A stretch of 16,497 nucleotides of DNA from a virus, in the UHGV virus genome UHGV-0097332, one strand, 5' to 3'. Shown here piece after piece: positions 917 through 12,444 of the stretch; within the stretch, counting starts at the first letter, position 1, and each line of letters begins with the position of its first letter. Under the pieces are notes generated by a model, which did no database searches, was not told the DNA's origin, and saw only the letters and a program-made list of their open reading frames with translations. Made by a program: the position numbers and the translations under genes.

Positions 917-992
917 TGGTGCTGGTTAACGGACTTGAACCGCTACCCATTCGCTTACAAGGCGACCGCCCTACCATTGGAGATAAACCAGC
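917..992 (-). tRNA. tRNA-like gene, anticodon UGU (Thr) by hand folding; 76 nt with encoded CCA
   Basis: Minus-strand sequence GCTGGTT...GGTTCAAGTCC...AACCAGC-A-CCA. It has a 7-bp acceptor stem, U8, GG in the D-loop, a T-arm AGCGG/TTCAAGT/CCGTT, and anticodon loop CTTGTAA. The D-stem and the top of the anticodon stem each carry a mismatch, so it may be divergent or degenerate. Confidence 0.5.
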
Positions 993-997
993 ATATT

Positions 998-1072
998 TGG
1001 CGGGACAGCGTGGACTCGAACCACGATAAGAAGGTTAACAGCCTTCCGTAATGACCTTTATACGACTGACCC
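998..1072 (-). tRNA. tRNA-like gene, anticodon GUU (Asn) by hand folding; 75 nt with encoded CCA
   Basis: Minus-strand sequence GGGTCAG...GAAGG-CTGTTAA-CCTTC...CGTGG-TTCGAGT-CCACG-CTGTCCC-G-CCA. Anticodon and T arms are perfect; the acceptor stem has one T-T mismatch and the D-arm is atypical. It lies 5 nt upstream (in transcription direction) of the other tRNA-like gene and abuts the tR' U-tract. Confidence 0.5.
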
Positions 1073-2801: not shown

Positions 2802-3523
2802 TAAGCAGCCTCCCCTGTTACTTTCAGCATTCCGTTATCTAGCAGCTTTCTGGTCAGCCACTGTTGACCACGCCCGGTGATTTTTGTGGTGAACGATATC
2901 TGTATTCCGTGATTTGTGTTGACCGCTGTTTCTTTCACTGTGAAATAGCCGCGATCCATATATTCCTGCATTGGCACATTGCGCCGGGAACCTGAAGCAA
3001 TAAGGATTTTGTGATCGCGCATCCACGCAAACAGTTTGTTTGGACCAATTCCAACAACCTTTGCAAAGTTTCCAATCAAAATTCCGCTGGCCTCGCCAAC
3101 GCGATCGGCAAACTCAACTTTAGGTGCGGCAATTGCGAGCTGGTTTTCCAGTTGCATTTTCTGCTCAGCAAGGTCAGCAGCAAGGCGCAACGCTTCTGGT
3201 AGCGTTTTTGGGATATTAACCGCAGTTTCTTCAAGCTCTCGCCAACGGTCAACAAGACGAGCGGTGAATTCCGGCGACAACTGGGCAACGACAATAATGC
3301 TGTCGCGCTTGCCTTGTTCGCCTTCGAAGACGTAAGCCTCGACACTACGGCGCAGTCCTAAGTTATTGATTTTTTCGAAAACCTGCAATGCAGGAAGTTG
3401 AATAACTCCAGATTTAGCCAGGCGCTCTATTGATATTTTTACGTTATCTGGACGACTTCCCACCAACTCAGCGATTTCAATGCTTGTCATTTTGATGGCA
3501 TTGCCATTTATTAACTCATTCAT
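2801..3523 (-). CDS. Phage regulatory/antirepressor-like protein (Rha/Roi-type N-terminus, KilAC/ANT-type C-terminus)
   Basis: 240-aa ORF. The N-terminal part carries a helix-turn-helix-like segment (TSIEIAELVGSRPDNVKISIERLAKSG); the C-terminal part resembles KilA-C/ANT domains. Assigned from recalled family resemblance only. Confidence 0.55.
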   Translation of the reverse strand: MNELINGNAIKMTSIEIAELVGSRPDNVKISIERLAKSGVIQLPALQVFEKINNLGLRRSVEAYVFEGEQGKRDSIIVVAQLSPEFTARLVDRWRELEETAVNIPKTLPEALRLAADLAEQKMQLENQLAIAAPKVEFADRVGEASGILIGNFAKVVGIGPNKLFAWMRDHKILIASGSRRNVPMQEYMDRGYFTVKETAVNTNHGIQISFTTKITGRGQQWLTRKLLDNGMLKVTGEAA

Positions 3524-8277: not shown

Positions 8278-8361
8278 TTGTTAATTTTCCAATAGTGAAT
8301 AGTTAGTTGAAAGGTATGCGTGGAAACGCATATGGCCTTAGTTGGTCAGATATCTTGGGGC

Positions 8362-8407
8362 TCGCTTTGTCAGCGACGTAGGACGAATGTCCATTGTGAA
8401 AAGAGCG
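8362..8407 (-). promoter_or_regulatory. nutR: boxA-like CGCTCTTTT and boxB hairpin (P22-type loop)
   Basis: Read on the minus strand: CGCTCTTTT (8407-8399), then the hairpin TCGCTGACAAAGCGA (8376-8362). The same GCTGACAAAGC hairpin occurs again downstream of pL. Confidence 0.65.
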
Positions 8408-8414
8408 GTGTTAC

Positions 8415-8615
8415 TTATGCAGTTGTTTTTTTGTTACTTGGGAAGGGCTTTATTTCTTCCGCATAAACGCTTCCATCAGCGTTTATAGTTAAAAAAATCT
8501 TTCGGCCTGCATGAATGGCCTTGTTAATCGCGCTTTGATATACGCCGAGATCTTTAGCCGTCTTGGTTTGCCCAAAGCGTATTGCATAATCTTTCAGGGT
8601 TATGCGTTGTTCCAT
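8415..8615 (-). CDS. cro: Cro repressor (lambda type)
   Basis: 66-aa [69 protein letters not shown], essentially the lambda Cro sequence as recalled. Confidence 0.97.
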
Positions 8616-8641
8616 ACAACCTCCTTAGTACATGCAACCAT

Positions 8642-8705
8642 TATCACCGCTAGAGGTAAAATAGTCAACACGCACGGTGTTAGATATTTATCCCTTGCGG
8701 TGATA
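8642..8705. promoter_or_regulatory. Right operator OR1-OR2-OR3 with divergent pR (minus) and pRM (plus)
   Basis: OR1 TATCACCGCTAGAGGTA (8642-8658), OR2 CAACACGCACGGTGTTA (8666-8682), OR3 TATCCCTTGCGGTGATA (8689-8705). pR -35 TTGACT and -10 GATAAT are readable on the minus strand. The cI ATG at 8716 sits immediately after pRM, consistent with a leaderless cI message. Confidence 0.9.
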
Positions 8706-8712
8706 GATTTAA

Positions 8713-9429
<717 letters not shown>

Positions 9430-9436
9430 CACGTAA

Positions 9437-9874
9437 ATGATTAAAGAACGTATTTCTTATATCATTCCGATTGCGATGGATGAAGGCAACCCAGTAACTC
9501 CGGTTCTTATCTATGAAATGGATAAAGACTCCCATGAAGTGGATCTATCATTTGGCGCTTTTTTTATCGGCCTTAAGGCTACAAAAAAATATTCCATAGG
9601 CATTGAGGTTTTCAATGCTCAAGAAATACCGATACCAATTGACACAAAACTGTACTCCAACCATAAGTTTTTTACGGTAGCAGAAGCCAACGATGGAGAA
9701 ACCATCGTATCAACTTCTATGAGAATTAACTTCCCAAGGGTGAAAATTATCAAGCCTGGGATATTCGAAGTTAGAGCATCACTGGTTAATCCTGATAAAG
9801 GCGAAGTAATTGATGTAAAAAGTTCGTTTTTTGACGTGAAGATAACAGGATCAGTTCGCGATGAGTTTAGATAA
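9437..9874 (+). CDS. Hypothetical 145-aa protein in the rexA position (first gene of the candidate lysogen-expressed cassette)
   Basis: ORF starts 8 nt after the cI stop and is AT-rich. No transmembrane segment or recognisable motif. It is not RexA (lambda RexA is about 279 aa and unrelated in sequence, as recalled). Confidence 0.7.
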   Translation: MIKERISYIIPIAMDEGNPVTPVLIYEMDKDSHEVDLSFGAFFIGLKATKKYSIGIEVFNAQEIPIPIDTKLYSNHKFFTVAEANDGETIVSTSMRINFPRVKIIKPGIFEVRASLVNPDKGEVIDVKSSFFDVKITGSVRDEFR

Positions 9875-10232
9875 CAAGGTTGCTCAGCTTCGTCCAAATC
9901 AAAACATATCTCGCCCAATTGGACACTATTCCACTGATGATGCATACTCACGGCATGGTGGAGGAAACGGCGGAGGTAACATGCTTGAGGCTAGAGTTGC
10001 AAAGCTAGAGTCTGATGTTGAATACATCAAGCGCGATCTCGCTGAAGTAAAGTCAGATATAAAATCTGTAGATTCTCGTCTGTCAGGTATTGAGACAAGC
10101 ATTAGCTCAGCAAAAATCACCATCAAGGCATCTGCGGTCGTTGTCAGTTTCGTGTTCGCATTTTGCGCCTACATTTTTGGAAGTTATGTTTCCAAAATCC
10201 TTGATGCCTTAAACGGACTCGTTCTTAAGTAA
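9861..10232 (+). CDS. Hypothetical small coiled-coil protein with C-terminal transmembrane helix, in the rexB position (alternative start ATG 9981 gives 83 aa)
   Basis: 123-aa ORF overlapping the upstream ORF by 14 nt. Gly-rich segment, then coiled-coil heptads (LEARVAKLESDVEYIKRDLAEVKSDIKSVDSRL), then hydrophobic helix AVVVSFVFAFCAYIFGSYV. GGAGG motifs lie just upstream of the internal ATG at 9981. Followed directly by a terminator. Confidence 0.7.
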   Translation: MSLDNKVAQLRPNQNISRPIGHYSTDDAYSRHGGGNGGGNMLEARVAKLESDVEYIKRDLAEVKSDIKSVDSRLSGIETSISSAKITIKASAVVVSFVFAFCAYIFGSYVSKILDALNGLVLK

Positions 10233-10239
10233 CACACAA

Positions 10240-10265
10240 CCCGGCCTCAGCGCCGGGTTTTCTTT
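10240..10265 (+). terminator. Intrinsic terminator ending the cI-cassette operon (timm equivalent)
   Basis: Stem CCCGGC (10240-10245) / GCCGGG (10252-10257) with loop CTCAGC, then TTTTCTTT. Matches the sequence I recall downstream of lambda rexB. Confidence 0.8.
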
Positions 10266-10422
10266 GCCTCACGATCCCCTTCACCCAATAACACATAACC
10301 AATTGTATTTATTTGAAAATTAATAGATACAACTCACTAAACATCGCAATTCAGATCTCTCGATCACCTCCCAAGCCACACACCCCTGCAAAAAAATAAA
10401 TCTATATAAAAAACATACAGAT

Positions 10423-10493
10423 AACCATATGCGGTGATAAATTATCTCTGGCGGTGTTGACATAAATACCACTGGCGGTGATACTAAACACAT
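10423..10493 (+). promoter_or_regulatory. pL promoter with OL3-OL2-OL1 operators
   Basis: OL3-like AACCATATGCGGTGATA (10423-10439), OL2 TATCTCTGGCGGTGTTG (10443-10459), OL1 TACCACTGGCGGTGATA (10467-10483). -35 TTGACA (10457-10462) and -10 GATACT (10481-10486). Confidence 0.9.
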
Positions 10494-10553
10494 CAGCAGG
10501 ACGCACTACTCACCAGGGCGGTGAATATACAACGATTCGAATATGAATCTACG

Positions 10554-10568
10554 GCGCTGACAAAGCGC
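10554..10568 (+). promoter_or_regulatory. nutL boxB hairpin (P22-type)
   Basis: GCGCTGACAAAGCGC: 5-bp stem with loop TGACA-type. Lies about 65 nt downstream of the pL start and upstream of N. No convincing boxA was found by eye. Confidence 0.65.
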
Positions 10569-10733
10569 AATAACCAAAGTGAACTTTGGGGTGTGGTGAA
10601 GGGTTCATGGACGGGAATATGTCGCACGTAAAGCGGCGAGGCCTGCGGGACTATTGCCGAATTGAAGTAGGCCGAAACAGGTCGAAATGGGTCTCCCACC
10701 TACCACACCACCAAAGTTCATCAGGAGGTCTAT

Positions 10734-11117
10734 ATGACACGCAGAACTCAGTTCAAAGGCAATTCACGTTCTCGTCGTCGTGAGCGTTTAAAGGCAAAGG
10801 CATTAGCTAACGGCGTACTGGCCCGCGAAGAAGCAATAAGTTCAGAAGTATTACACCGCCCTACTCTAAGCAGAGCGCAGATTCAGGCTAAAGGTACTCA
10901 CGAAACGCCTGATCGCATAGAAGACGCTAAGCCAATTAAGTTCATGGCACAGGACGTGATCTGGCAACAGAAAGAATACAGACGCAATCTGGAGCGAGCG
11001 GCCATTGTGTACGCGAATGAGTTTGGACATAAGCAACCAGAAACTGGTGTATGTCTTCCAAATGTAGCTCTTTACGCGGCAGGCTACCGGAAATCAAAAC
11101 AACTGACAGCGAGGTAA
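10734..11117 (+). CDS. N: N-like transcription antiterminator (arginine-rich motif; not lambda N)
   Basis: 127-aa ORF with an AGGAGG ribosome-binding site. N-terminal arginine-rich motif GNSRSRRRERLKAKA. First gene after pL/nutL. The boxB loop matches the P22 type as recalled. Confidence 0.78.
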   Translation: MTRRTQFKGNSRSRRRERLKAKALANGVLAREEAISSEVLHRPTLSRAQIQAKGTHETPDRIEDAKPIKFMAQDVIWQQKEYRRNLERAAIVYANEFGHKQPETGVCLPNVALYAAGYRKSKQLTAR

Positions 11118-12007: not shown

Positions 12008-12303
12008 ATAAATTACTCTCTTACTGTAGGGGTGAATAGAGTTTATCCGATTTCTCGCTGTAGGGGTACTCGAGAACCACCGAGCCTGATGTGGTTAAAA
12101 GACAGGCATACGAATAAACACTGCACTGTGTATTCATTCCAACGAGTGAATACACGGAGCAATGTCGCTCGTAACTAAACAGGAGCCGACTTGTTCTGAT
12201 TATTGGAAATCTTCTTTGCACTCCAATGTGAGGGCCTTTTTATATGCATACCAATAACGCTTCACTCGAGGCGTTTTCGTTATGTATAAATAAGGAGCAC
12301 ACC

Positions 12304-12444
12304 ATGCAATATGCCATTGCAGGGTGGCCTGTTGCTGGCTGCCCTTCCGAATCTTTACTTGAACGAATCACCCGCAAATTACGTGACGGATGGAAACGAC
12401 TCATCGACGTACTTAATCAGCCAGGAGTTCCCAAAAATGGATAA
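12304..12444 (+). CDS. cIII: CIII (FtsH/HflB inhibitor), 46 aa, ending at TAA relative to the 54-aa lambda protein
   Basis: AAGGAG ribosome-binding site 7 nt upstream. MQYAIAGWPVAGCPSESLLERITRKLRDGWKRLIDVLNQPGVPKNG matches lambda CIII residues 1-46 as recalled. The stop is TAA where lambda has a Ser codon; the out-of-frame downstream codons would still read NTYGYPD. Confidence 0.85.
   Translation: MQYAIAGWPVAGCPSESLLERITRKLRDGWKRLIDVLNQPGVPKNG

What the first reader, a model, noticed from the sequence alone, without database searches (positions are those of the whole stretch)
9919..9983. Possible internal promoter and alternative start for the membrane-protein gene, echoing lambda pLit
Inside the 3' end of the first cassette gene there is a sigma-70-like element: TTGGAC (9919-9924), 18-nt spacer, CATACT (9943-9948). 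It is followed by GGAGG motifs encoded by the Gly-rich stretch, then an in-frame ATG at 9981. From that ATG the product would be an 83-aa coiled-coil plus transmembrane protein. Lambda has an internal promoter inside rexA that expresses rexB independently, and the ratio of the two products matters for exclusion. A similar arrangement here would support the analogy.
Basis: inference. Interest (0 to 1): 0.4.

Follow-up and report, generated by a model that had tools for sequence, protein, structure and literature searches.

The report
Nested promoter and start inside prophage gene
A small membrane-protein gene next to a prophage's repressor appears to carry its own hidden promoter, ribosome-binding site and second start codon, so it probably makes a full-length and a shortened protein; comparison with relatives supports this, but no experiment has tested it.

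Summary
One statement is wrong. They lie inside the second cassette gene (g2, 9861-10232, codons 20-41), 45 nt past the stop of the first gene (g1, 9437-9874).

In this window alone the promoter match (9/12) is no better than chance. Across relatives it is. In 41 diverged g2 homologues:
- 15 have a sigma-70-like site, 14 with a 17-nt spacer, whose -10 starts 30-50 nt before the internal start. Shuffling gives 0.7 and synonymous recoding 1.3.
- 29 have GGAGG or AGGAG 3-11 nt before that codon, against 12 expected.
- The codon is ATG in 35, GTG in 4, TTG in 2.

A hold-out metagenome set repeats all three signals more weakly. The hexamers are islands of conservation in otherwise unalignable sequence, and the -10 occurs in two reading frames. 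The long reading frame is also conserved.

Best reading: the repressor operon yields the 123-aa form. The nested promoter yields an 83-aa form that is exactly the predicted helix (coiled coil plus membrane span). This works like lambda pLIT but is built differently. No transcript or protein data exist.

The parts
8716..9429 (+). cI repressor gene (lambda immunity); first gene of the operon that carries the cassette
   Evidence: 237 aa, E 7.7e-155 to lambda repressor 3BDN. Lambda-type operators occur only at 8642-8705 (OR) and 10423-10483 (OL).
9437..9874 (+). g1, first cassette gene, 145 aa, Ig-like beta-sandwich of unknown function
   Evidence: ORF. Matches phrog_5893 at 8.5e-65 with no Pfam, NCBIfam or PADLOC family. 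AlphaFold2 pLDDT 87, all-beta; only generic PDB sandwich hits with TM about 0.5.
9861..10232 (+). g2 long form, 123 aa: disordered variable N-terminal tail (1-40, ending in GGGNGGG), then coiled coil and one membrane span. Its start overlaps the g1 stop by 14 nt.
   Evidence: ORF. Matches phrog_6136 end to end. The upstream frame is open for at least 26 codons in 41/41 homologue clusters. An ATG lies -16 to +8 nt from the upstream gene's stop in 39/40. In the AlphaFold2 model residues 1-36 have pLDDT <50 and residues 41-121 form a helix.
9920..9925 (+). -35-like hexamer TGGACA (alternative register TTGGAC 9919-9924), written in codons Ile-Gly-His
   Evidence: Invariant in three diverged lineages (epsilon34/L077, L106/L107, window/L002) although spacer bases differ. 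The family logo carries information only at T[T/G]GA...
9943..9948 (+). -10-like hexamer CATACT, written across codons Ala-Tyr-Ser
   Evidence: CATA[AC]T starts 30-50 nt before the internal start in 11/41 and 6/21 independent clusters, against a background of 0.011 per window. It occurs in two codon phases: CAT ACT (His-Thr) in other families and gCA TAC Tca here.
9954..9957 (+). Predicted transcription start (about 7 nt after the -10; A at 9955), giving a leader of about 26 nt
   Evidence: Inference from standard sigma-70 geometry; not measured. The leader and start region is predicted unstructured, with the ribosome-binding site and AUG unpaired.
9972..9976 (+). Shine-Dalgarno GGAGG written in Gly codons (GGC GGA GGT), 4 nt before the internal ATG; a second GGAGG lies at 9960-9964
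   Evidence: Family-wide, 29/41 clusters have GGAGG or AGGAG 3-11 nt before the start, against 12.2 +/- 2.7 (max 20 of 2000) under synonymous recoding. GGA makes up 33% of Gly codons there against 15% in the background. Hold-out: 12/21 against 6.9 +/- 1.9.
9981..10232 (+). Internal start (ATG 9981-9983 = Met41) and the 83-aa short isoform: the whole predicted helix, coiled coil plus membrane span
   Evidence: The codon at this position is ATG 52, GTG 5, TTG 5 and other 2 in 63 clusters. The helix starts at residue 41. The weak Pfam XhlA match covers residues 42-88.
9977..9985 (.). Recurrent mosaic joint: g1 plus the g2 N-terminal tail travel together, and the short-isoform module is exchanged separately
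   Evidence: Identity to the window switches here in three lineages. epsilon34 goes from 90% to 37%, L002 from 100% to 40%, and L106/L107 from 73-80% to 100%.
10238..10269 (+). Intrinsic terminator ending both the operon transcript and any transcript from the nested promoter
   Evidence: 8-bp stem with 6 GC pairs followed by a T-run. This stretch matches sequence annotated 'immunity region | terminator' in HK542 and HK244.

Best explanation
The window is a lambda-immunity prophage in which rexA-rexB are replaced by a two-gene cassette. That cassette sits next to the prophage repressor gene in most relatives examined (17 of the 19 whose upstream gene was identified or sampled). The second gene, g2, is probably a nested gene that makes two proteins.

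(1) The 123-aa long form is translated from the repressor (pRM) operon transcript. Its start codon overlaps the g1 stop, which suggests translational coupling.

(2) A sigma-70 promoter is written into codons 20-30 of g2 (TGGACA, 17 nt, CATACT). It would start a roughly 300-nt transcript near 9955. That transcript carries a GGAGG written in glycine codons and the ATG at 9981. It can only encode the 83-aa short form, which is exactly the folded part of the protein: a coiled coil and one membrane span, without the disordered variable 40-aa tail.

The same internal ribosome-binding site could also be used on the long mRNA. No lambda operator lies nearby, so the nested promoter should keep working when pRM is shut off.

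Inferred and not shown: the ratio of long to short form tunes or neutralises the cassette's activity. The tail travels with g1 in mosaics and is the likely contact with it. A tail-less form that can still oligomerise through the coiled coil and membrane span would act as a competitor or antidote. This resembles excess RexB from pLIT, or Esc against SieB.

Shown here: the conserved sequence architecture. Inferred: transcription, translation and function.
For: - Position-specific promoter signal. 15/41 homologue clusters (<85% nt identity) have a site with at least 4/6 in each hexamer and at least 9/12 overall, with the -10 starting 30-50 nt before the internal start. The dinucleotide-shuffle null is 0.73 +/- 0.82 (max 4). 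13 sites fall in one 21-nt bin, against 2 or fewer in every other bin from -700 to +260. The synonymous-recoding null is 1.27 +/- 1.07 (max 5), and 14/15 have a 17-nt spacer.
- Islands of conservation. In the anchored logo, information sits only in the two hexamers, including a conserved non-consensus C at -10 position 1. Hexamer identity is 0.72 in 113 pairs whose other positions are 0.26 identical, spread over 11 unalignable families.
- DNA-level rather than protein-level constraint. The -10 is written in two different codon phases.
- Ribosome-binding site. 29/41 against 12.2 +/- 2.7 under recoding, with GGA codons enriched.
- Start codon. In the 10 clusters where Met is replaced by a start-capable codon, that codon is GTG (5) or TTG (5). 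None has Ile or CTG. Only 2 of 63 clusters have a non-start codon there.
- Hold-out metagenome set, same criteria. Promoter 4/21 against 1.1 (fraction of nulls reaching 4 = 0.0115); CATA[AC]T 6/21 against 1.6 (max 5 of 2000); ribosome-binding site 12/21 against 6.9.
- The long form is also real. The frame is open in 41/41, and the ATG abuts the upstream stop in 39/40.
- The helix begins exactly at Met41, and the tail is predicted disordered.
- Mosaic joints fall at 9977-9985, so the short-form module behaves as an exchangeable unit.
- The ribosome-binding site and AUG are unpaired in the predicted leader.
- No lambda operator lies near the site.
- Precedent for the logic: pLIT and RexB, and suppression by excess RexB.
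Against: - There is no experimental evidence of any kind: no mapped 5' end, no reporter assay, no protein N-terminus.
- In the window itself the match is only 9/12, with a non-consensus C at -10 position 1, and such matches are as frequent as in shuffles. Any promoter is probably weak.
- Penetrance is partial. A strict promoter-like site is found in 15/41 and 4/21 clusters. epsilon34 and L077 keep the hexamers but lack GGAGG.
- The clusters are not phylogenetically independent, and the -50 to -30 window was chosen after seeing the first set. The hold-out addresses this only in part.
- GTG and TTG are the Val and Leu codons reachable from ATG by one mutation. Recent substitutions would therefore look like this without selection.
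- The spacing between GGAGG and ATG in the window is 4 nt, at the short end of the functional range (my knowledge, not tested here).
- The proposed role of the isoform ratio is pure inference.
Confidence: 0.58

Rival explanations
1. There is an internal start but no promoter. The 83-aa isoform is made only by internal initiation on the pRM polycistronic mRNA. The promoter-like hexamers are non-functional or serve some other DNA- or RNA-level purpose.
For: The ribosome-binding-site and start-codon signals are more penetrant than the promoter signal: 29/41 and 61/63 against 15/41. The window's promoter match is only 9/12 and is not above chance locally. Loci without a promoter-like site still keep GGAGG and ATG.
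Against: This does not explain why two hexamers with a fixed 17-nt spacer are the only conserved positions in an otherwise random-looking stretch. Nor does it explain their sharp positional peak or the -10 written in two codon phases.
Confidence: 0.17
2. Everything is a by-product of protein constraints and shared descent. The glycine linker simply contains GGNGGN, Met41 is a structural residue at the start of the coiled coil, and the hexamers encode conserved residues (Ile-Gly-His, His-Thr or His-Asn). Only the 123-aa protein is made.
For: The Gly run and Met are conserved at the protein level. In the 'M-x-x-R' subfamilies Met occupies the heptad position that Leu42 fills here. GTG and TTG are single-step neighbours of ATG. 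The clusters share ancestry.
Against: Synonymous recoding that keeps every protein sequence loses most of the signal: ribosome-binding site 12.2 against 29, promoter 1.3 against 15, and CATA[AC]T 1.6 against 6 in the hold-out set. The rare GGA codon is doubled in frequency. The -10 is encoded by different amino acids in different frames. No Ile or CTG replacements of Met are seen. Non-hexamer positions are at random identity.
Confidence: 0.12
3. The short ORF is the only real gene. The 106 nt between the g1 stop and ATG 9981 is an ordinary intergenic promoter region, and the 123-aa 'long form' is an annotation artefact.
For: The tail is hypervariable and predicted disordered. The promoter, ribosome-binding site and ATG have textbook spacing for a gene start. 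Mosaic joints, which usually fall at gene boundaries, fall here. Gene callers sometimes pick the short form, as in P0053 (82 aa) and P0073 (72 aa).
Against: The frame upstream of the internal start is open for at least 26 codons (median 42) in 41/41 clusters, against medians of 26 and 2 in the other two frames. An in-frame ATG sits within -16 to +8 nt of the upstream gene's stop in 39/40. phrog_6136 matches the full length. None of this is expected for non-coding DNA.
Confidence: 0.06
4. The GGAGG in the glycine codons is an internal Shine-Dalgarno-like pause site that slows ribosomes before the coiled coil and membrane span are made, for folding or membrane targeting. It is not an initiation site.
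For: GGA codons are enriched beyond protein need, and the motif sits exactly at the boundary between the disordered tail and the helix.
Against: Pausing does not require a start-capable codon 3-11 nt downstream, nor a promoter upstream. Whether such motifs cause pausing in vivo is itself disputed (my knowledge, not tested here).
Confidence: 0.05

Closest known systems
Lambda rexA-rexB with the pLIT promoter
   Same: The genomic slot is the same: directly after lambda-type cI and before the immunity terminator. It is a two-gene cassette co-transcribed from pRM, with the second product in the membrane. A second promoter with no repressor operator nearby is embedded in coding sequence and expresses the membrane component on its own. 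In Rex the ratio of the two products matters, and excess RexB suppresses exclusion.
   Different: There is no sequence or family similarity to RexA or RexB. [quoted passage not shown] Here the promoter lies inside the membrane gene, downstream of its start, and can only yield an N-terminally truncated isoform.
P22/lambda sieB and its in-frame product Esc (Ranade and Poteete 1993; the reference is listed, the details come from my own knowledge)
   Same: A prophage exclusion gene encodes a full-length protein and an N-terminally truncated protein from an internal in-frame start. The short form is said to inhibit the long form.
   Different: It is an unrelated protein at a different locus (the pL operon). 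In P22 the switch is said to be driven by an antisense RNA rather than by a nested sense promoter. I could not verify the details in the held library.
Dual-start holin/antiholin genes (lambda S107/S105; my knowledge)
   Same: One ORF with two starts yields two membrane proteins whose ratio sets the activity threshold.
   Different: The holin isoforms differ by 2 residues, not 40. They come from one mRNA, not a nested promoter. They lie in the lysis cassette and are expressed late, not next to the repressor in the lysogen.
XhlA family (Pfam PF10779; PBSX lysis-associated membrane protein)
   Same: A short coiled coil followed by a C-terminal membrane span. The 83-aa isoform has about the size and layout of a stand-alone XhlA-type protein. 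NCBI names several homologues 'hemolysin XhlA'.
   Different: The match is below Pfam's threshold: 19.3 bits against a cut-off of 34.7, with 25/63 members at E<=1e-3. The variable tail and Gly run, the genomic context (immunity region rather than lysis cassette) and the partner gene g1 are not XhlA features.
BstA and other cargo of the cI-N interval
   Same: The same mosaic hotspot downstream of the prophage repressor, presumed to share the repressor's promoter and to be expressed in the lysogen. The BstA locus also contains a built-in self-immunity element, aba.
   Different: The proteins are unrelated. BstA's self-immunity element is a DNA sequence, not a second protein isoform. No defence phenotype is known for g1-g2.

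Membership tests
Sigma-70 promoter | -35 and -10 hexamers resembling TTGACA and TATAAT, with A at -11 and T at -7, 16-18 bp apart | tested here: met
   TGGACA, 17 nt, CATACT: 9/12 matches. This match class is no more frequent than in shuffles in the window alone.
Sigma-70 promoter | Conservation of hexamers and spacing at the same place in homologues, beyond what the coding sequence requires | tested here: met
   15/41 against 0.73 (shuffle) and 1.27 (recoding). There is a sharp positional peak, 14/15 have a 17-nt spacer, and information sits only in the hexamers. Hold-out: 4/21 against 1.1, and CATA[AC]T 6/21 against 1.6.
Sigma-70 promoter | A primary transcript 5' end about 7 nt after the -10, and hexamer-dependent activity | not testable with these tools
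   Needs dRNA-seq or 5'-RACE and reporter fusions. No paper mentions these genes.
Internal (in-frame) translation initiation site | A Shine-Dalgarno sequence at functional distance from a start-capable codon, conserved beyond protein need | tested here: met
   GGAGG lies 4 nt before ATG 9981. Family-wide: 29/41 against 12.2 +/- 2.7, and GGA is 33% against 15%. Codons are ATG 52, GTG 5, TTG 5, other 2 of 63.
Internal (in-frame) translation initiation site | Detection of the shorter protein or of initiating ribosomes at the site | not testable with these tools
   Needs initiation profiling, N-terminal proteomics or a tagged western blot.
Lambda pLIT-type arrangement | The promoter is embedded in the distal end of the upstream (first) gene and transcribes the complete membrane-protein gene | tested here: not met
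   g1 ends at 9874. The hexamers are at 9920-9948, inside g2 and downstream of its ATG at 9861. pLIT is defined.
Lambda pLIT-type arrangement | The second promoter is not under direct repressor control (no operator at the promoter) | tested here: met
   Matches to the lambda operator pattern occur at OR 8642-8705 and OL 10423-10483, plus one 3-mismatch match at 2866-2882; none lies near 9900-9990. Absence of control is inferred from this.
RexA/RexB protein families | Sequence membership of g1 in RexA and of g2 in RexB | tested here: not met
   No RexA or RexB hit in Pfam, NCBIfam, PHROGs or PADLOC.
XhlA (PF10779) | Score at or above Pfam's gathering cut-off | tested here: not met
   19.3 bits (20.0 for the short form) against 34.7. 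25/63 homologues reach E<=1e-3, the best at 8.3e-6. This is remote resemblance only.
Known anti-phage defence systems (PADLOC) | A significant match of either protein to a defence-system model | tested here: not met
   g1 has none. g2 has only weak coiled-coil matches: CorA-like at 0.0039 and LmuB at 0.034.
Repressor-linked prophage cargo cassette | Conserved position directly downstream of, and on the same strand as, a CI-type repressor | tested here: met
   Seen in the window, epsilon34, E2348/69 and Salmonella loci. A further 9 representatives were found by phmmer and 8 of 10 sampled by Pfam.

The most novel reading that the evidence does not exclude
g1-g2 is a widespread, uncharacterised, repressor-linked exclusion or abortive-infection module of Gammaproteobacterial prophages, and its effector gene carries built-in self-immunity.

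The long isoform would be made only while pRM is on. It would be tethered to the g1 sensor through a fast-evolving disordered tail and would be the trigger-competent form. The tail-less isoform would be made from a nested, repressor-independent promoter written into the tail's own codons. It would co-assemble with the long form and damp or cancel its activity. On induction the balance would shift to the short form, and the prophage could then grow lytically without killing itself.

That would be a protein-isoform solution to the self-immunity problem that lambda is thought to solve with pLIT and RexB.
Probability: 0.25. Interest if true: 0.75.

Novelty: new variant of a known kind. Interest (0 to 1): 0.55.

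Why it matters
Promoters inside genes and in-frame second starts are known individually. Here a promoter, a ribosome-binding site and a start codon are all written into the codons of a hypervariable, disordered protein tail. They appear to be the main thing selection preserves there, across prophages of many Gammaproteobacteria.

If this is real:
- Annotation misses a second product of a gene present in pathogen prophages, including EPEC E2348/69 and Salmonella.
- It explains why mosaic exchange breaks this gene exactly at codon 41.
- It gives a small, tractable system (123 and 83 aa) for asking how prophage-encoded membrane effectors are kept harmless to their own phage. That question is still open for lambda Rex.

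Tried and rejected
- Window-only promoter statistics gave no excess over shuffles. The case rests entirely on comparison with relatives.
- Literature search on protein accessions and locus tags found nothing. Searches on XhlA/prophage/repressor and on rexAB/lambdoid/defence found no paper on this cassette. The epsilon34 genome paper only notes genes 44 and 45 as rex-like in position, without database matches.
- I tried to verify the SieB/Esc details in the held library and failed. Only the reference itself was seen.
- RNA structure around the site: neither the short leader (z 0.35) nor the 181-nt region (z 1.24) folds better than shuffles. No Rfam family lies in the cassette. A structured RNA element was therefore rejected.
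- A minus-strand terminator-like hairpin at 9925-9912 overlaps the -35 through the palindrome CCAATTGG. The palindrome is not kept in epsilon34 (CCAAATTGG), so it was dismissed.
- The g1 fold search gave only generic beta-sandwich matches: RhoGDI, carbohydrate-binding modules and ML-domain proteins, with TM about 0.5. No function could be assigned.
- PADLOC and NCBIfam gave no meaningful hit.
- phmmer with two repressors found a CI-like gene upstream in only 9/41 representatives. Pfam on 10 of the remainder showed this was a sensitivity problem, with 8/10 being HTH and/or S24 repressors.
It was repeated with an allowed alignment.
Full report
**Setting**

The window is the immunity region of a lambdoid prophage, read so that cI is on the + strand.
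- cro is at 8415-8615 (-).
- The cI gene (8716-9429) encodes the lambda repressor itself (E 7.7e-155 to PDB 3BDN).
- Lambda-type operators are found only at OR (8642-8705) and OL (10423-10483).
- pL (TTGACA, 17 nt, GATACT) is at 10457-10485.
- A gene that looks like the H-19B-type N gene (recognised from memory, not tested; an N-family hit was seen only in related loci) is at 10734-11117.

Where lambda has rexA-rexB, this prophage has two other genes. g1 is at 9437-9874 (145 aa). g2 is at 9861-10232 (123 aa). A strong intrinsic terminator follows at 10238-10259.

**Checking the observation**

- TTGGAC 9919-9924 and CATACT 9943-9948. The better register is TGGACA 9920-9925 with a 17-nt spacer, 9/12 matches.
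- GGAGG at 9960-9964 and 9972-9976.
- ATG 9981-9983, in frame as codon 41 of g2, leaving 83 aa.

One statement is wrong. The element is not in the 3' end of the first gene, which stops at 9874. It lies in codons 20-30 of the membrane-protein gene, downstream of that gene's own start. A transcript from it could therefore never encode full-length g2.

Taken alone, the match is not above chance: 6 promoter-like sites in 8300-10800 against 5.0 +/- 2.7 in shuffles.

**The proteins**

g1 matches only an uncharacterised phage family (phrog_5893). It models confidently (pLDDT 87) as an Ig-like beta-sandwich with generic structural neighbours.

g2 matches phrog_6136 end to end. Its match to Pfam XhlA on residues 42-88 is below threshold (19.3 bits against a cut-off of 34.7; 25/63 homologues reach E<=1e-3). 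In the AlphaFold2 model, residues 1-36 are disordered (pLDDT <50) and a single helix runs from residue 41 to 121. That helix has an unbroken heptad core from L42 to A84 and a hydrophobic span at about 90-110. Met41 is therefore exactly where the folded part begins.

**Relatives**

The cassette occurs at 98-99.9% identity in 14 complete E. coli genomes, including EPEC E2348/69. It occurs at about 77% identity in Salmonella phage epsilon34 (genes 45 and 44). The epsilon34 authors noted only that these genes sit like rexA and rexB and had no database matches.

Protein and locus searches gave homologues from Enterobacterales, Vibrio, Shewanella, Pseudoalteromonas and Pseudomonas, and from alpha- and deltaproteobacterial MAGs.

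All share one plan:
- a tail of 20-60 residues that cannot be aligned between subfamilies,
- a glycine run (typically GGGNGGG),
- one to three residues,
- then M-(L)-E-x-R-V-A-K-L-E-S-D and the coiled coil.

The gene immediately upstream falls into two main families. Upstream of that sits a CI-type repressor in 9 representatives found by phmmer and in 8 of 10 others sampled by Pfam. The cassette is thus repressor-linked cargo in the cI-N mosaic hotspot.

**The internal start**

I clustered the homologues at <85% nucleotide identity around the site, giving 41 clusters. The codon at the Met41 position is ATG in 35, GTG in 4, TTG in 2 and ACG in 1.

A GGAGG or AGGAG lies 3-11 nt upstream in 29 of 41. 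When each protein sequence is kept and its codons are redrawn from the usage of its own locus, the expectation is 12.2 +/- 2.7 (maximum 20 in 2000 trials). GGA, a minor Gly codon (15% in the same loci), makes up 33% of the Gly codons there. Where a Gly is replaced, it is by AGA or AGG, which keeps the purine run.

The glycine linker is therefore written so as to be a Shine-Dalgarno sequence. One caveat: GTG and TTG are the single-step neighbours of ATG, so recent substitutions would look like this anyway. Even so, no Ile and no CTG replacements are seen.

**The internal promoter**

I applied the criteria of the scan tool: at least 4/6 in each hexamer, at least 9/12 overall, A at position 2 and T at position 6 of the -10, and a 16-18 nt spacer. 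Under these criteria, 15 of 41 clusters have a site whose -10 starts 30-50 nt before the internal start.
- Dinucleotide shuffles give 0.73 +/- 0.82 (max 4).
- Synonymous recoding gives 1.27 +/- 1.07 (max 5).
- Along -700 to +260, 13 sites fall in one 21-nt bin and no other bin has more than 2.
- Fourteen of the 15 have a 17-nt spacer.

I then anchored 17 sequences on the -10. Information content is confined to T[T/G]GA.. and CAT[A/C][A/C]T. This includes a conserved non-consensus C that the selection criteria did not require. Spacer and flanks are at random identity: 0.26 in 113 pairs whose hexamers are 0.72 identical. The sequences form 11 families that are otherwise unalignable.

The -10 is encoded as CAT ACT or CAT AAT (His-Thr or His-Asn) in most families, but as gCA TAC Tca (Ala-Tyr-Ser) in the window's family. 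The same DNA word thus appears in two reading frames. Within the window's own family, three lineages that differ at spacer positions keep both hexamers unchanged.

**Hold-out test**

The position window was chosen after seeing the first set. I therefore fetched metagenome loci using patterns from the C-terminal module only. I kept 22 clusters that were <85% identical to everything seen before.
- Start-position codons: 17 ATG, 3 TTG, 1 GTG, 1 GTC.
- 5-mer ribosome-binding site: 12/21 against 6.9 +/- 1.9.
- Strict promoter-like site: 4/21 against 1.10 +/- 0.92 (fraction of nulls reaching 4 = 0.0115).
- CATA[AC]T starting at -50 to -30: 6/21 against 1.6 +/- 1.0 (max 5 of 2000). The background is 0.011 per window.

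The signals replicate, but at lower penetrance, and many of these loci come from distant taxa.

**The long form is real too**

The frame upstream of the internal start is open for at least 26 codons (median 42) in all 41 clusters, against medians of 26 and 2 in the other two frames. An in-frame ATG lies within -16 to +8 nt of the upstream gene's stop in 39 of 40. In the window the overlap is 14 nt. The tail is therefore translated, and the promoter, ribosome-binding site and second start are embedded in coding sequence rather than in a spacer.

**Mosaic structure**

Identity profiles show g1 and the g2 tail travelling together, while the part from codon 41 onward is exchanged independently. 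The switch always falls at 9977-9985:
- epsilon34 goes from 90% to 37%.
- E. coli EPSSH018 (L002) goes from 100% to 40%.
- Salmonella L106/L107 go from 73-80% to 100%.

The short-isoform module behaves as a unit of exchange. The linkage of the tail with g1 suggests, by inference only, that the tail is what contacts g1.

**Mechanism proposed**

Shown: a conserved promoter / ribosome-binding site / start architecture nested in a conserved longer ORF.

Inferred:
- In the lysogen, the pRM transcript yields CI, g1 and, by coupling, the 123-aa g2.
- The nested promoter would start a transcript of about 300 nt near 9955. Its leader leaves the GGAGG and AUG unpaired. It ends at the same terminator and encodes only the 83-aa helix.
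- No operator is nearby, so this transcript should continue when pRM is shut off after induction.
- A tail-less protein that keeps the coiled coil and membrane span should co-assemble with the long form and change its activity.

The closest logical parallels are:
- RexB made from pLIT, and suppression of Rex by excess RexB.
- SieB and Esc, and holin and antiholin. Details of both come from my own knowledge; only the SieB reference was seen.

In construction this is not a pLIT-type arrangement, and the proteins are not Rex family members.

**What would overturn this**

Nothing here is experimental. The reading would be refuted by three results together: a lack of a primary 5' end near 9955, no initiation signal at 9981, and a single protein species from tagged g2. 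The weakest points are:
- the modest match in the window itself,
- partial penetrance across the family,
- residual phylogenetic non-independence of the clusters,
- the wholly inferred function.

**Verdict**

The feature is best described as a new variant of a known kind: a nested promoter and dual-isoform gene in prophage immunity cargo, within an uncharacterised two-gene cassette.

Noticed in passing
window 9977-9985; L001 (epsilon34), L002, L077, L106/L107: A recurrent recombination joint falls exactly at the Gly run and Met41 of g2. g1 plus the 40-aa tail form one module. At least four different coiled-coil/membrane modules are found attached to it: the window type, the epsilon34 type, the L002 type and the L077 type.
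   Followed up: partly
window 9955-10008: An out-of-frame ATG at 9955-9957 coincides with the predicted transcription start and opens a 17-codon ORF, so a leaderless peptide is conceivable. In many homologues the Tyr/His-Gly codons before the Gly run give tATGG at +12 or +13 from the -10, a pyrimidine-purine step at the expected start position. This could be coincidence.
   Followed up: no
window 9861-9900 and the first ~12 residues of g2 homologues: Although the tails cannot be aligned, many begin with a similar short pattern: M-x-x-(D/N)-N-V-x-x-(L/I/F)-x-P, as in MSLDNKVAQLRPN, MSENVTVLRPG, MSNNVIPFN and MQDNVAVGKFP. This may be a short linear motif, perhaps the g1 contact.
   Followed up: no
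window 9437-9874: g1 models as an Ig-like beta-sandwich. Its nearest solved folds include lipid- or glycan-binding sandwiches (RhoGDI, ML-domain MD-1/MD-2/NPC2, carbohydrate-binding modules), but only at TM about 0.5. The upstream genes of g2 homologues fall into at least three sequence families (22, 11 and 3 clusters).
   Followed up: partly
window 8716-10260 compared with lambda: The prophage has the lambda repressor and lambda-type operators. However, rexA-rexB are replaced precisely between the cI stop and the immunity terminator, a clean cassette swap in the cI-N hotspot. Other E. coli prophages have a 'P63C domain' gene abutting the same terminator sequence.
   Followed up: partly
window 12291-12349 (+): Rfam match to the lambda cIII thermoregulator element (RF01804, 88.5 bits).
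   Followed up: no
window 920-1072 (-): Two adjacent tRNA genes on the minus strand (Rfam RF00005, 48 and 55 bits), presumably phage-borne tRNAs in the late region or near Q.
   Followed up: no
L106 and L108 3892-4479 (-); L107 4217-4876: In Salmonella relatives the same region carries further exclusion-type cargo just beyond N: a SieB-family gene, a pentapeptide-repeat gene and Ral. Several lysogen-expressed functions are stacked around the immunity region.
   Followed up: no
L001 (epsilon34) 3040-3060; L077: epsilon34 and L077 keep both promoter hexamers and the ATG, but write the Gly run without GGAGG (GGC GGT GGT and GGC GGG GGT). The strength of the internal ribosome-binding site therefore varies between close relatives.
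   Followed up: no
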